NCBI GenBank assembly: GCA_044228875.1
Contig: JBGAUA010000001.1
Location: 14,713-78,712 of the forward strand
Direction: 5' to 3'
DNA: 64,000 bases
DNA from: Anaerolineae bacterium
GTDB taxonomy: Bacteria > Chloroflexota > Anaerolineae > Epilineales > Epilineaceae
Part shown: in pieces, positions 24,504-26,518 of the stretch
Position numbering within the stretch: the stretch's first letter is position 1
Layout: the number at the start of each line of letters is the position of its first letter
Position numbers and translations under genes: made by a program
Notes under the pieces: generated by a model
The model's database searches: none
What the model saw: only the letters and a program-made list of their open reading frames with translations
Told to the model about the DNA's origin: nothing

Positions 24504-25310
24504 TCAGACGGGCGGCCACGGCACGTGGTGGCGGTCGGGGTCCGGCTCGGGGTAGCGCGCCGCCTTGACCAGGCCACTGCAGCGCGCCGCCAACGCCGCC
24601 AGCTCCGCCGGAGCGAGCAAGGTGGCAAGCTCCATCGTGCAGGGGTCGGCGTTGTCGGACAGGCGCGCGGCGAGAGCGTCCAGGTCCGCGCGGACCGCGG
24701 CCGGCAGACGCTCTCCGGCCCAATCCCAGATCACCGTTCGCAGCTTCGGCGCTTCGTGGAAGCAGACGCCATGGTCGATGGCCCAGAGGCGGCCCGCTTC
24801 GTCGGCGAGGATGTGACCGCTCTTGCGGTCGGCGTTGTTGATCAATGCGTCAAAGGCCACGAGACGACGAAGCGCGCGGCGGTCCCATCCCGTAGCGGCC
24901 AGGTAATGCAGCTGCGGGTCGTGGGGAATGAAGGCCTGCACCGCGCCGAAGCCGAAAGGACCCTCGCGCAGAACCGTCGGCGGCACCAGACCCCAACCCA
25001 GGGCCCTGTCGACGAGCCAGGCCGCGCGCTCCCGAAGGCAGAGCGTGCCATCGGCGAAGTCCCAGAGCGGCCGCTCGCCCTGGCGCGGCTTGTAAACGGC
25101 GCGCAGCGGCGAATCCCGGTCGCCGCCGTCGGCCGCGTCCCCCGGCAGCAGCCGGCACAGGAAGGTGGCGTTGGAGCTCCATGTGATCCGGCCCTCCAGA
25201 TCCAGTTCCGCTGTCTGCAACCAGGCCAGGAGATCATCGGCCATGATGGCCAGGCCCTCGGCAGCCGGACCCGGTGGCGGCTCGCCCGCTGCGCTGCTAA
25301 TGGTGCCCAT
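24504..25310 (-). CDS. SCO1664-family (TIGR03843-like) protein, PI3/PI4-kinase-like fold
   Basis: 'ALINNADRKSGHIL..LWAIDHGVCFH' resembles the catalytic/activation segments of the SCO1664 family. Start uncertain: ATG candidates at 25310 or 25244; the first ATG is at 25406. Confidence 0.55.
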   Translation of the reverse strand: MGTISSAAGEPPPGPAAEGLAIMADDLLAWLQTAELDLEGRITWSSNATFLCRLLPGDAADGGDRDSPLRAVYKPRQGERPLWDFADGTLCLRERAAWLVDRALGWGLVPPTVLREGPFGFGAVQAFIPHDPQLHYLAATGWDRRALRRLVAFDALINNADRKSGHILADEAGRLWAIDHGVCFHEAPKLRTVIWDWAGERLPAAVRADLDALAARLSDNADPCTMELATLLAPAELAALAARCSGLVKAARYPEPDPDRHHVPWPPV

Positions 25311-25842
25311 TGCGCCGCTGACAACGATGCCCCTCGTCCAGGGGCTCGCCACAGGCCGGGCAATTCGGTCGTCCACCGGCGACGACGGTGGGGATATGCT
25401 GGACAAGGTCCAAGGCCTGCTCGTAGCGCAAGGCCAGACGGGCCTTCATCCCGGGCGGCAGGTCCAGGCCCGCATCCGGCTCGTCATCCTCGTCGTCGAG
25501 GCCCAACTCGTGGAGCACAAGGAGCACCCGGTGCCGATTCTCGTCAACCCCCAGGCCGATGCTGCCGACGCGGAAGGCCTCCTCGAAGGGCTGGACCAGC
25601 TCCGTCGACCCGCCGGCGGCCTGAAGATCCGTCGCATGCTCCGGATCTTCGCGCCGAAGCAGGTTGAGCAGGCGCGCCAGTCCCGCGGCCATGGCCGCGG
25701 CCTGCTCCTTCTCCAGACCTAGGGTCAGCACGCGACCGTCCTGGGTGGCCTGCAGCAGGAAGCGGCGGCGTCCGGGTGAGCCGACGGTGCCTACCGTGAC
25801 GGACGCCACATCGTCCAGATCATAGGCAAAGCGTTCAGACAT
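25297..25842 (-). CDS. DUF3090 (TIGR03847-like) protein
   Basis: 181 aa starting 'MSERFAYDLDDV'. C-terminal Cys cluster 'CPACGEPLDEGHRC'. Start overlaps the upstream phosphatase stop by 8 nt. Confidence 0.55.
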   Translation of the reverse strand: MSERFAYDLDDVASVTVGTVGSPGRRRFLLQATQDGRVLTLGLEKEQAAAMAAGLARLLNLLRREDPEHATDLQAAGGSTELVQPFEEAFRVGSIGLGVDENRHRVLLVLHELGLDDEDDEPDAGLDLPPGMKARLALRYEQALDLVQHIPTVVAGGRPNCPACGEPLDEGHRCQRRNGHH

Positions 25843-26518
25843 GGGCTGCTCCCTCAGCGGGGATCGACGCGTCGGCATCCACGAGGAGCGCGCCATCCGG
25901 GGGAGGCGGCGCGATCGGTTCCGGGAGGAGGCCGCAGTGGTTGACAAGACGCAGGCAGGGATGGCCGTCCTGGAATTGAACGGCGCTGACCGATGCCGGG
26001 GCGACATCGAAACGCTGGAAGGCGTCCAAGGCAGCGCCGGCGTAGGTGGCCAGCAGGATCTTGATGACATCGGCATGCGATACCACGGCCACGGCTCCTG
26101 AGGGATGGCGGGACAGCAGCTTCTCGATGCCCGCCACCGCCCTCGCCTGCACCTCGAGCGGCGACTCGCCGCCGGGAAAGCGCATGCGACTCGGGCTGGA
26201 CTGGACCACCGCCCACAGCGGATCCTGCCGCAGTTCGTCCAGCGTCCGGCCGGTCCAATCGCCGAAGTCCACCTCCTGCACATCCGGCAGCGGCTCGATC
26301 GTCAGCGGCCGCCCATCCGCGATGGCGGCAGCCGTGGCCATGGTCCGTTCCAGGGGGCTGGCGTACAGAGCCGCCAGATCATGACCGGCCAGTCGATCCA
26401 CCAGGGCCGCGACCTCGATTCGACCCTTGTCGCTGAGACCCACACCCGGCATCCTACCGGCCAGGCCGCGGCCGACCCAGTCGGTGCTGGCATGGCGAAT
26501 GAGGAGAAGGAGGGTCAT
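25835..26518 (-). CDS. Histidine-phosphatase-superfamily protein (MSMEG_4193/TIGR03848-like putative phosphomutase)
   Basis: 'LLLLIRHASTDW' RHG-type catalytic motif at the N-terminus; 'VVSHADVIK' second His. Start at internal ATG 26518. Confidence 0.7.
   Translation of the reverse strand: MTLLLLIRHASTDWVGRGLAGRMPGVGLSDKGRIEVAALVDRLAGHDLAALYASPLERTMATAAAIADGRPLTIEPLPDVQEVDFGDWTGRTLDELRQDPLWAVVQSSPSRMRFPGGESPLEVQARAVAGIEKLLSRHPSGAVAVVSHADVIKILLATYAGAALDAFQRFDVAPASVSAVQFQDGHPCLRLVNHCGLLPEPIAPPPPDGALLVDADASIPAEGAAHV

What the first reader, a model, noticed from the sequence alone, without database searches (positions are those of the whole stretch)
24504..26518. Translationally coupled triad: histidine-phosphatase (MSMEG_4193-like) / DUF3090 / SCO1664-family kinase-like protein, next to arfB
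Three minus-strand genes with overlapping stop/starts (8-nt and ~14-nt overlaps). The first has an RHG phosphomutase motif 'LLLIRHASTDW'. The second is a 181-aa protein with C-terminal 'CPACGEPLDEGHRC' (DUF3090-like). The third has 'LWAIDHGVCFH', reminiscent of PI3/PI4-kinase-like SCO1664-family proteins. This triad is known as a conserved but functionally uncharacterised module (TIGR03848/03847/03843) mainly in Actinobacteria. It looks like a kinase/phosphatase/small zinc-ribbon partner system of unknown substrate.
Basis: partly seen in the sequence, partly recalled or inferred. Interest (0 to 1): 0.65.

Follow-up and report, generated by a model that had tools for sequence, protein, structure and literature searches.

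The report
Conserved kinase–partner–phosphatase operon, function unknown
This is a real, tightly packed three-gene operon (a phosphatase, a small zinc-binding protein and an unusual kinase, followed by the ribosome-rescue gene arfB). It belongs to a module already catalogued in Actinobacteria and Chloroflexi, and nobody has yet worked out its substrate.

Summary
The minus strand carries four genes:
- a histidine phosphatase (25835-26518)
- DUF3090 (25297-25842)
- an SCO1664-family kinase (24504-25310)
- arfB (24040-24471)

The first three overlap by 8 nt and 14 nt. DUF3090 and the kinase pass NCBIfam's curated cut-offs. The phosphatase misses TIGR03848 by 2 bits, but it sits within the score range of syntenic orthologues.

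The window is from Chloroflexota (Anaerolineae/Ardenticatenia), not Actinobacteria. In 80 genome loci from both phyla, the kinase follows DUF3090 in 79. The phosphatase precedes DUF3090 in 70 of 75 assessable loci. No other neighbour is conserved across phyla, and mshC lies nearby only in class Actinomycetes.

New here:
- The kinase model resembles type II PI4-kinase, FAM20 and HipA-like CtkA, and its catalytic residues are invariant.
- The DUF3090 model is a two-repeat fold resembling PUR-alpha, with a poly-acidic loop and a CxxC…HxC zinc knuckle. No Ser/Thr/Tyr is strictly invariant.

Best guess (about 0.4): a self-contained write/erase phosphorylation module in which DUF3090 is the kinase's obligate targeting or activating subunit. 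The substrate is unknown. This is a new member of a known but uncharacterised kind, of moderate interest.

The parts
25835..26518 (-). Histidine phosphatase, branch 1 (227 aa), MSMEG_4193/Rv2135c-like, with an RHA motif. Catalytic set is R8, H9, R58, E82, H148.
   Evidence: Pfam His_Phos_1 at 1e-50. TIGR03848 scores 201.6 bits against a cut-off of 203.85, and the next family scores 112.6. Syntenic orthologues score 197.5-231. Residues were read from the sequence and match the Arg57/Glu82/His153 named for Rv2135c.
25297..25842 (-). DUF3090 protein (181 aa). Two beta-sheet-plus-helix repeats, a poly-acidic loop (about residues 113-132) and a C-terminal C161-x2-C164…H172-x-C174 zinc knuckle.
   Evidence: TIGR03847 scores 139.4 against 117.25. 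PF11290 at 1e-38. AF2 model has pLDDT 87.7. Foldseek top hits are PUR-alpha repeats I-II. Invariant residues come, charge analysis.
24504..25310 (-). SCO1664-family atypical kinase (268 aa). Invariant residues are K74, E94, D161-R-K-x-G-H166 and D179-H-G.
   Evidence: TIGR03843 scores 269.5 against 172.4. PF00454 scores 25.1-25.4 against 27.1 for this protein, but all 36 homologues hit it, best 5e-11. AF2 model has pLDDT 84.4. Foldseek finds PI4KII alpha/beta, FAM20 and CtkA.
24040..24471 (-). arfB (143 aa), the ribosome-rescue peptidyl-tRNA hydrolase. Same strand, 32 nt downstream of the kinase, so probably the last gene of the operon in this clade.
   Evidence: NF006718 scores 138.9 against 100. 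The GGQ motif and basic tail are visible in the sequence. No terminator-like site lies between the genes. arfB is present downstream only in L005, L006 and L087/88 among the relatives.
25835..25842 (-). 8-nt overlap ATGTCTGA between the phosphatase stop and the DUF3090 start.
   Evidence: Read directly from the sequence.
25297..25310 (-). 14-nt overlap ATGGGCACCATTAG between the DUF3090 stop and the kinase start.
   Evidence: Read directly. The conserved 'MGTIS' kinase N-terminus is the +1 reading of the invariant DUF3090 C-terminal codons N-G-H-H-stop.
26519..26672 (.). Divergent intergenic region shared with a sigma-70 gene (26673-27845, + strand). It presumably holds the operon promoter.
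   Evidence: One sigma-70-like site on the + strand at 26603-26630 and none called on the minus strand. No Rfam match anywhere in 23900-26900.

Best explanation
Identity (confidence about 0.95). This is the Chloroflexota version of the conserved triad made of an MSMEG_4193-type histidine phosphatase, DUF3090 and an SCO1664-family kinase. In M. tuberculosis the triad is Rv2135c-Rv2134c-Rv2133c by inference from gene order. Here it is transcribed as one translationally coupled operon together with arfB.

Mechanism (inferred, confidence about 0.4). The module is a self-contained write/erase phosphorylation system.
- The kinase is a minimal PI4K-type-II/HipA-like enzyme with a complete catalytic set. 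It works as an obligate pair with DUF3090.
- DUF3090 is more likely the kinase's targeting or activating subunit than a classical Ser/Thr/Tyr phospho-acceptor. Its PUR-like repeat 1 and its zinc knuckle carry all of the invariant Arg, Phe, Gln, Glu and Lys residues, which suggests a binding site for an anionic ligand or macromolecule.
- The histidine phosphatase removes the phosphate that the kinase adds.

The target is unknown. I favour a macromolecule or a membrane lipid, in other words something that needs an adaptor, over a soluble metabolite.

Shown: gene structure, family membership, the conserved pairing, the predicted folds and the conserved catalytic residues. Inferred: complex formation, the role of DUF3090, and that the kinase and phosphatase act on the same phosphate.
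For: - Family scores and overlapping junctions.
- The kinase follows DUF3090 on the same strand in 79 of 80 genome loci from two phyla. The phosphatase precedes DUF3090 in 70 of 75 assessable loci.
- Nothing else is conserved around the module across phyla. This argues for a self-contained module rather than a step in a larger clustered pathway.
- Kinase: Foldseek finds PI4KII alpha (E 1.7e-7, TM 0.53), FAM20A/C and the HipA-like CtkA. All 36 homologues hit PF00454 and 30 hit HipA_2. K74, E94, D161, H166 and D179 are invariant.
- DUF3090: a confident model whose top four PDB matches are PUR-alpha repeats I-II, plus a weak internal-repeat signal.
- In 180 diverse DUF3090 sequences no Ser/Thr/Tyr is strictly invariant (position 40 is S/T in 97%, Ala in 4). 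R26, F28, E44, K45, R158 and the zinc ligands are at least 96% conserved, F28, R158 and two zinc cysteines being strictly invariant.
- The orthologous phosphatase Rv2135c has only weak, millimolar-Km activity on small phosphoesters and none on 3-PGA, G6P or ADP. That fits a natural substrate not among those tested.
- One plausible natural phosphatase-DUF3090 fusion, P0176.
Against: - No experiment or complex prediction was possible, so the interaction between kinase and DUF3090 is inferred from gene linkage alone.
- The PUR-alpha match is modest (TM 0.37-0.46, high rmsd) and has no sequence-level support.
- DUF3090 is strongly acidic (median pI 4.5) and its folded core is about neutral. That is unusual for a nucleic-acid binder.
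- An equimolar kinase and phosphatase acting on the same phosphate would be a futile cycle unless regulated. They could instead act on different groups.
- Type II PI4-kinases are lipid kinases, and the mshC linkage in Actinomycetes points to inositol or thiol metabolism.
- The phosphatase is dispensable in one lineage.
Confidence: 0.4

Rival explanations
1. Inositol-linked lipid or small-molecule metabolism. The kinase phosphorylates phosphatidylinositol or an inositol glycoside. The histidine phosphatase is one of the missing inositol-phosphate phosphatases: MshA2, which dephosphorylates GlcNAc-Ins-P, or the PIP phosphatase of bacterial PI synthesis. DUF3090 is an accessory subunit.
For: - The best structural matches of the kinase are type II PI 4-kinases, and every homologue hits PF00454.
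- SCO1664 is reported as invariably next to mshC in actinomycetes. I confirmed this in Tsukamurella (mshC 3.3 kb away, uppP nearby) and in Nonomuraea (mshC about 670 nt downstream).
- Mycothiol reviews list an MshA2 phosphatase step without naming a gene. That the gene is still unassigned is my own knowledge.
- Rv2135c was found in membrane fractions.
- An inositol-monophosphatase-family gene and a GDPD gene lie elsewhere in the window.
Against: - No MshC or CysRS-like gene lies within 10 kb of the module in any of the 80 Chloroflexota and Acidimicrobiales loci, or anywhere in the 64-kb window.
- No inositol or lipid gene is a conserved neighbour.
- Mycothiol is described for Actinomycetes only, yet the module is widespread in Chloroflexota.
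- The kinase is acidic and has no membrane-binding feature.
- Small-molecule kinases rarely need an obligate zinc-knuckle partner.
- Rv2135c was not tested on inositol phosphates, so there is no positive evidence.
Confidence: 0.25
2. Partner-switch-like protein phospho-switch. The kinase phosphorylates DUF3090 itself, the phosphatase dephosphorylates it, and the phosphorylation state of DUF3090 controls its binding to a cellular target. The logic is that of SpoIIAB/SpoIIAA/SpoIIE, built from unrelated folds.
For: - The three genes are tightly coupled and near-equimolar.
- The closest non-lipid structural relatives of the kinase (FAM20C, CtkA/HipA) are protein kinases.
- His_Phos_1 enzymes include protein phosphatases such as SixA and PGAM5 (established knowledge).
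- DUF3090 position 40 is Ser/Thr in 97% of 180 sequences.
- MSMEG_4192, DUF3090 by inferred gene order, appears in a ClpC1 interactome.
Against: - No strictly invariant Ser/Thr/Tyr exists. Position 40 is Ala in 4 sequences and T19 is below 90%.
- The many invariant charged residues look more like a binding site than a phospho-loop.
- The phosphatase is absent from one lineage that keeps the pair.
Confidence: 0.15
3. Nucleic-acid-directed module. DUF3090 binds single-stranded RNA or DNA through its PUR/Whirly-like domain and zinc knuckle. The kinase and phosphatase modify or heal RNA ends or 2'-OH groups, following either the end-healing logic of polynucleotide kinase-phosphatase or the ArkI/KptA write-erase logic on tRNA. 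This ties in with arfB-dependent ribosome rescue.
For: - PUR-alpha is the top structural match, and Whirly WHY2 appears further down the list.
- Invariant Arg, Phe, Gln and Lys residues lie in repeat 1 and the zinc knuckle.
- arfB is co-oriented 32 nt downstream in this clade.
- The kinase weakly matches the archaeal tRNA kinase ArkI.
- In end-healing, a kinase and a phosphatase co-occur without a futile cycle (established knowledge of Pnkp).
- Rv2134c transposon mutants are more rifampicin-sensitive, ranking next to rnhC.
Against: - DUF3090 has a median net charge of -15 and a neutral core.
- arfB linkage is restricted to a few Anaerolineae loci.
- No ligase or other RNA-repair gene is a conserved neighbour.
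- The ArkI match is no better than matches to generic protein kinases.
- No histidine-phosphatase-superfamily enzyme is known to me to act on nucleic-acid ends.
- The PUR similarity is modest.
Confidence: 0.12
4. The three genes are functionally unrelated neighbours kept together by compact operon structure.
For: Function is unproven. The phosphatase can be lost, and the gene next to the module differs from lineage to lineage.
Against: The same order, strand and mostly overlapping junctions are kept across two phyla at 37-52% DUF3090 identity, while all other neighbours change.
Confidence: 0.03

Closest known systems
Actinobacterial triad TIGR03848/TIGR03847/TIGR03843 (Rv2135c-Rv2134c-Rv2133c, MSMEG_4193-4191, SCO1666-1664; the annotated example seen here is Tsukamurella EL451_RS17820-17810)
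   Same: Same three families, order and strand, with overlapping or abutting junctions. The phosphatase has the same RHA motif as Rv2135c.
   Different: The host is Chloroflexota. There is no mshC or uppP nearby, and arfB is appended instead. The phosphatase scores 2 bits under the curated cut-off.
Type II phosphatidylinositol 4-kinase (PI4KII alpha/beta)
   Same: Best structural match (E 1.7e-7, TM about 0.5). The catalytic-loop and 'IDxG' activation-segment motifs are similar, and the equivalents of the lysine and the two aspartates are invariant.
   Different: About 250 aa against about 480. The catalytic-loop Asn is replaced by an invariant His166. No palmitoylation or membrane-binding insert. 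About 19% identity. The window protein is below the Pfam gathering score. Lipid-kinase activity is untested.
HipA-like kinases, including H. pylori CtkA, and FAM20/CotH secretory kinases
   Same: Structural matches at E 1e-5 to 1e-6. 30 of 36 homologues hit the HipA_2 profile weakly. A profile search of PDB sequences picks up the FAM20A N-lobe.
   Different: Not a toxin-antitoxin context: the genes are single-copy, housekeeping-like and vertically conserved. No HipB/HipS partner and no secretion signal.
PUR-alpha (PUR repeats I-II) and the Whirly-class single-stranded nucleic-acid-binding fold
   Same: Two consecutive beta-sheet-plus-helix repeats packing into one domain. The top four Foldseek PDB hits are fly and human PUR-alpha.
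   Different: No sequence-level similarity. DUF3090 adds a zinc knuckle and a poly-acidic loop and is very acidic overall. Nucleic-acid binding is untested.
Rv2135c acid phosphatase (Coker et al. 2013, PMC3866925)
   Same: Orthologous family, RHA motif, and an equivalent Arg/Glu/His catalytic set.
   Different: Different phylum. Biochemistry exists only for Rv2135c, and only with generic substrates.
McsA/McsB/YwlE of Firmicutes (zinc-finger activator, protein arginine kinase, phosphatase)
   Same: The same three-part logic: a kinase, a small CxxC zinc-binding partner and a dedicated phosphatase. This comparison rests on my own knowledge.
   Different: None of the three proteins is homologous to its counterpart. 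This is an analogy only.

Membership tests
TIGR03843 SCO1664 family | HMM score above the curated cut-off | tested here: met
   269.5 bits against 172.4.
TIGR03843 SCO1664 family | Encoded immediately downstream of a DUF3090 gene | tested here: met
   14-nt overlap in the window. Same arrangement in 79 of 80 loci.
TIGR03847 / PF11290 DUF3090 | HMM scores above the curated cut-offs | tested here: met
   139.4 against 117.25 and 133.3 against 27.
TIGR03847 / PF11290 DUF3090 | C-terminal CxxC…HxC motif and N-terminal G-x-P-G-x-R-x-F motif | tested here: met
   C161, C164, H172, C174, G21, P23, G24, R26 and F28 are present, and 93-100% conserved in 180 sequences.
TIGR03848 MSMEG_4193 family phosphatase | HMM score above the curated cut-off | tested here: not met
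   201.6 against 203.85, so 2.25 bits short. Ten syntenic orthologues score 197.5-231, with 9 above the cut-off. The next-best family scores 112.6. I therefore call it MSMEG_4193-like, an orthologue by synteny, and not a cut-off-certified member.
TIGR03848 MSMEG_4193 family phosphatase | Histidine-phosphatase catalytic residues, and a position immediately upstream of DUF3090 | tested here: met
   R8, H9, R58, E82 and H148 were read from the sequence. His_Phos_1 at 1e-50. 8-nt overlap with DUF3090.
PI3/PI4-kinase (PF00454) | Pfam gathering score | tested here: not met
   25.1-25.4 against 27.1 for the window protein, although all 36 homologues hit the family, best 5e-11.
PI3/PI4-kinase (PF00454) | Kinase fold with catalytic Lys, catalytic-loop Asp and metal-binding Asp | tested here: met
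   Foldseek match to PI4KII at E 1.7e-7. K74, D161 and D179 are invariant. The mapping onto the PI4KII alpha residues K152, D308 and D346 is from memory.
PI3/PI4-kinase (PF00454) | Phosphorylates phosphatidylinositol | not testable with these tools
   Needs a biochemical assay.
PUR-alpha / Whirly-class fold | Two beta-beta-beta-beta-alpha repeats forming one domain | tested here: inconclusive
PUR-alpha / Whirly-class fold | Sequence-profile membership (PurA family) | tested here: not met
   No PUR hit in Pfam at E up to 5 for any of the 36 members, nor in the PDB profile search.
PUR-alpha / Whirly-class fold | Binds single-stranded nucleic acid | not testable with these tools
   Electrostatics are unfavourable overall: pI 4.5 and a neutral core.
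ArfB (NF006718) | HMM score above the cut-off, GGQ motif and basic C-terminal tail | tested here: met
   138.9 against 100. GPGGQ and a Lys/Arg-rich tail are in the translation.
Mycothiol biosynthesis gene cluster | Linkage to mshC or other msh genes | tested here: not met
   MshC homologues were found only in the two Actinomycetes loci. None was found in the 64-kb window or in the 80 Chloroflexota and Acidimicrobiales loci.

The most novel reading that the evidence does not exclude
The SCO1664 kinase and its PUR-like zinc-knuckle partner form a previously unrecognised housekeeping phospho-signalling system of Actinomycetota and Chloroflexota, acting on a non-classical macromolecular target. 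Two candidates are worth testing. One is RNA or a class-I aminoacyl-tRNA-synthetase-type enzyme (MshC/CysRS), following HipA's logic. The other is protein arginine, filling the role of the arginine kinase that has not been found in actinobacteria, with DUF3090 as a McsA-like activator and the histidine phosphatase as the eraser.
Probability: 0.12. Interest if true: 0.8.

Novelty: new member of a known kind. Interest (0 to 1): 0.42.

Why it matters
The triad is one of the better-conserved 'known unknowns' of two large phyla. DUF3090 alone has about 2,800 clusters at 50% identity, and the triad is present in M. tuberculosis. Its kinase is a bacterial relative of eukaryotic type II PI 4-kinases and of HipA, it looks catalytically competent, and it has no known substrate.

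The module is equally conserved in Chloroflexota without mshC, which removes the easy 'mycothiol accessory' reading. The PUR-like, zinc-knuckle architecture of the obligate partner gives concrete binding and phosphotransfer assays to run. For this window itself, the result is an ordinary and correctly recognised instance of that module.

Tried and rejected
- The first homologue search timed out and was repeated.
- Phmmer and profile searches of PDB sequences found no solved relative of DUF3090, and only marginal FAM20 and PI4KII hits for the kinase.
- Clustering of neighbouring ORFs was dominated by antisense 'shadow' ORFs typical of 70% GC DNA. After filtering on GC3, the only conserved neighbours were within Acidimicrobiales (ETF, PdtaS, FrhB-like, GDPD, MMPL). 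These reflect lineage synteny, not the module.
- A Pfam census of 116 flanking proteins from Chloroflexota found no recurrent family. The top count was 4 of 116.
- Fusion proteins: of three long DUF3090 hits, P0301 and P0231 look like frameshift artefacts. Only P0176 is a plausible phosphatase-DUF3090 fusion.
- No riboswitch or other Rfam family was found in 23900-26900, and no tRNA in the window.
- The alternative kinase start at Met23 was rejected because that Met is absent in the closest homologue.
- T19 and S/T40 of DUF3090 were considered as phospho-acceptors and downgraded, because both tolerate Ala.
- The 'plasmid' hits turned out to be chromosomal actinomycete sequence filed as plasmids. 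They were still useful for annotated context.
- Literature searches by locus tags and by family or InterPro identifiers found no functional study beyond the Rv2135c acid-phosphatase paper.
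Full report
**What is there.** The window is about 70% GC throughout. On the minus strand between 24040 and 26518 lie four co-oriented genes:

| Gene | Coordinates | Length |
|---|---|---|
| Histidine phosphatase | 25835-26518 | 227 aa |
| DUF3090 protein | 25297-25842 | 181 aa |
| SCO1664-family kinase-like protein | 24504-25310 | 268 aa |
| arfB | 24040-24471 | 143 aa |

- The phosphatase stop and the DUF3090 start share ATGTCTGA, an 8-nt overlap.
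- The DUF3090 stop and the kinase start share ATGGGCACCATTAG, a 14-nt overlap.
- arfB follows the kinase after 32 nt, and no terminator-like site lies in between.
- Gene calls on metagenome contigs that carry identical proteins give the same four lengths.
- The alternative internal kinase start (Met23) is not available in the nearest homologue, so the overlapping ATG is the real start.
- The conserved 'MGTIS' N-terminus of the kinase in this clade is simply the +1 reading of the invariant DUF3090 C-terminal codons N-G-H-H-stop.
- Upstream is a 154-nt divergent intergenic region shared with a sigma-70 gene.
- No Rfam family matches the region.

**Family assignments.**
- Against NCBIfam, the kinase scores 269.5 bits on TIGR03843 (cut-off 172.4). 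DUF3090 scores 139.4 on TIGR03847 (cut-off 117.25). ArfB scores 138.9 on NF006718 (cut-off 100).
- The phosphatase scores 201.6 on TIGR03848, 2.25 bits under the cut-off of 203.85. Its next-best family, alpha-ribazole phosphatase, scores only 112.6.
- Ten phosphatases taken from the same position in other loci score 197.5-231. The window protein therefore sits at the low edge of the true orthologues. I call it MSMEG_4193-like by synteny rather than a cut-off-certified member.
- Pfam gives His_Phos_1 (1e-50), DUF3090 (1e-38) and a sub-threshold PI3_PI4_kinase hit (25.1 against 27.1).
- The phosphatase has the full catalytic set (R8, H9, R58, E82, H148). It carries RHA rather than RHG, the same variant noted for M. 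tuberculosis Rv2135c.

**Whose genome.**
- The closest named homologues, at 82-86% identity, are from Anaerolineae/Ardenticatenia MAGs.
- A syntenic stretch exists in NCBI assembly GCA_016710785.1. It runs MreB, EPSP synthase, topoisomerase I, 3-hydroxyacyl-CoA dehydrogenase, sigma-70, the triad, arfB, a giant CotH protein, VTC and DUF4956.
- The window is therefore Chloroflexota, not Actinobacteria.

**Conservation.**
- A scan of one genome per GTDB species returned more than 575 DUF3090 loci. The best 80 are about 31 Chloroflexota (Anaerolineae, Caldilineaceae, Chloroflexia, Limnocylindrales) and about 49 Actinomycetota, mostly Acidimicrobiales.
- The kinase lies on the same strand after DUF3090 in 79 of the 80. 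One of these is 7.3 kb away, and L031 lacks a kinase.
- The phosphatase lies directly upstream of DUF3090 in 70 of the 75 loci that have enough upstream sequence to judge.
- With heuristic start assignment, the phosphatase-to-DUF3090 junction overlaps in 38 of 70 loci. The DUF3090-to-kinase junction overlaps in 51 of 78, most often by 4 nt.
- Nothing else is conserved across phyla. Acidimicrobiales neighbours (ETF, PdtaS, FrhB-like, GDPD, MMPL) reflect lineage synteny.
- arfB follows the module only in the window's own clade and in L005 and L006.
- One lineage (L013, L057, L081, L085/86) lacks the phosphatase. It has a membrane-anchored sulfite-oxidase-family molybdoenzyme upstream instead.
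- DUF3090 has 2,787 clusters at 50% identity with E up to 1e-3.

**Link to mycothiol.**
- A review notes that SCO1664 is invariably next to mshC in actinomycetes.
- I confirmed this in two annotated or readable actinomycete records. In Tsukamurella the order is uppP … histidine phosphatase, DUF3090, SCO1664 … mshC, then a PAC2 gene. In Nonomuraea mshC lies about 670 nt downstream of the kinase.
- Using that MshC as a query, no homologue exists in the 64-kb window or within 10 kb of the module in any of the 80 Chloroflexota and Acidimicrobiales loci.
- The mshC linkage is thus a feature of class Actinomycetes, not of the module as a whole.

**The kinase.**
- The AF2 model (pLDDT 84.4) best matches human PI4K type II alpha/beta (E 1.7e-7, TM about 0.5). 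Next come FAM20A/C, then the HipA-like CtkA of H. pylori, then type III PI4Ks.
- All 36 aligned homologues hit PF00454 (best 5e-11), and 30 hit HipA_2 weakly.
- Invariant residues include K74 (AVYKP), E94, D161-R-K-x-G-H166 and D179-H-G. These are the lysine, the catalytic-loop aspartate and the metal-binding aspartate expected of an active kinase, with His replacing the usual catalytic-loop Asn. The mapping onto PI4KII residues is from memory.
- There is no solved relative by sequence.

**DUF3090.**
- The AF2 model (pLDDT 87.7) has three parts: four strands and a long helix; then three strands and a helix interrupted by a disordered poly-Asp/Glu loop; then a C-terminal knuckle with C161, C164, H172 and C174.
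- The four best PDB matches are PUR-alpha repeats I-II from fly and human (E 1.6e-4 to 8.5e-3, TM 0.27-0.46). Whirly WHY2 appears lower in the list.
- The last strand and helix of the two halves align weakly with each other (P = 0.002), which is consistent with an internal duplication.
- The protein is very acidic: median pI 4.5 and net charge -15. Almost all of that comes from the variable loop, and the folded core is about neutral.
- In 180 diverse sequences the residues conserved at 93% or better (F28, R158, C161 and C164 strictly invariant) are G21, P23, G24, R26, F28, Q31, E44, K45, Q47, G157, R158, the zinc ligands and N178.
- No Ser, Thr or Tyr is strictly invariant. Position 40 is S/T in 97% but Ala in four sequences.
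- This pattern looks more like a ligand-binding site in repeat 1 plus the knuckle than like a phospho-acceptor loop.

**The phosphatase in the literature.** Rv2135c has no phosphoglycerate mutase activity. It has weak acid-phosphatase activity, with Km 8-14 mM on pNPP, PEP, fructose-6-P and glycerol-1-P, and none on 3-PGA, G6P or ADP. It is a tetramer, its natural substrate is unknown, and it is found in membrane fractions.

**Other literature hints.** These depend on mapping locus tags to DUF3090 by gene order, which is an inference.
- Rv2134c transposon mutants of BCG are more sensitive to sub-MIC rifampicin.
- MSMEG_4192 appears in a ClpC1 interactome.
- MSMEG_4192 transposon mutants are over-represented after dibucaine treatment.
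- No paper assigns a function.

**How it most likely works.**
- Firm points: a catalytically competent atypical kinase is inseparable from a small zinc-knuckle protein, it is usually preceded by a competent histidine phosphatase, and the unit needs no other conserved neighbour.
- I therefore read it as a self-contained write/erase phosphorylation module in which DUF3090 is the kinase's obligate targeting or activating subunit. The target is more likely a macromolecule or membrane lipid than a soluble metabolite. Confidence is about 0.4.

Rival explanations:

| Rival | Confidence | Main objection |
|---|---|---|
| Inositol-linked lipid or mycothiol metabolism, with the phosphatase as a missing MshA2 or PIP phosphatase | 0.25 | mshC is absent outside Actinomycetes |
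| Partner-switch-like phosphorylation of DUF3090 itself | 0.15 | No invariant hydroxyl residue |
| RNA/ssDNA-directed module linked to arfB | 0.12 | DUF3090 is acidic, and arfB linkage is clade-limited |
| Unrelated neighbours | 0.03 | Order and junctions are conserved across two phyla |

None of these can be settled without complex prediction or biochemistry.

**Verdict.** The module is already catalogued but uncharacterised. This locus is a new member of that known kind. It is of moderate interest as a well-defined and testable 'known unknown'.

Noticed in passing
window 18414-24001: A 1274-aa protein (20177-24001, + strand) converges on arfB. It carries Fn3_assoc, CHB_HEX_C, a CotH kinase domain and LTD. 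Next to it are a VTC-domain protein (19118-20113, - strand) and DUF4956 (18414-19268, - strand). The same CotH/VTC/DUF4956 set is syntenic in GCA_016710785.1. This puts a second atypical (FAM20-like) kinase right beside the triad.
   Followed up: partly
window 9900-10850 and 15685-18339: An inositol-monophosphatase-family gene and a GDPD (glycerophosphodiester phosphodiesterase) fused to FG-GAP repeats lie 8-15 kb from the triad. A GDPD gene is also a conserved neighbour of the triad in Acidimicrobiales. This may be coincidence, but it bears on the inositol-lipid rival.
   Followed up: no
L013 8350-9960, L057 8294-9961, L081 8368-9960, L085 6422-7960: In one lineage (labelled Chloroflexia or Limnocylindrales) the phosphatase is missing. 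A membrane-anchored sulfite-oxidase-family molybdoenzyme of about 510-555 aa sits directly upstream of DUF3090 and the kinase, on the same strand.
   Followed up: partly
L007 11845-14361 and the equivalent position in L008, L015, L034, L062, L064, L068, L071: In Caldilineaceae-type loci an 838-aa fusion of NTP_transferase, hexapeptide repeats and PGM/PMM follows the kinase on the same strand. It looks like a sugar-1-phosphate nucleotidyltransferase/phosphomutase.
   Followed up: partly
L031 10007-10537: This is the only locus with DUF3090 but no SCO1664 kinase or phosphatase within reach. Its neighbours are a Rex-like regulator, a nitroreductase and a RimK-type ATP-grasp ligase.
   Followed up: partly
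P0176 (404 aa, metagenomic): An apparently in-frame His_Phos_1-DUF3090 fusion with a 25-residue linker. Here the phosphatase has the canonical RHG motif. Two other long hits (P0301, P0231) look like frameshift artefacts.
   Followed up: partly
window 24525-25667 (+) and other + strand ORFs across the triad: Long antisense ORFs of up to 380 aa overlap the triad and recur in relatives. Their codon-position GC pattern is not gene-like, so they are shadow ORFs of a 70% GC coding region.
   Followed up: yes
L089 (Tsukamurella NZ_LR134462.1) and L090 (Nonomuraea NZ_LT559118.1): Both records are filed as plasmids in PLSDB but carry core chromosomal genes (mshC, metH, dapA, uppP). The Nonomuraea record is 11.85 Mb. 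They appear to be chromosomal sequence mislabelled as plasmid.
   Followed up: no
window 12257-13366: A NurA-domain nuclease gene, which is unusual in bacteria. Several large ORFs (38819-40126, 45417-48476, 59206-60453) have no Pfam match.
   Followed up: no
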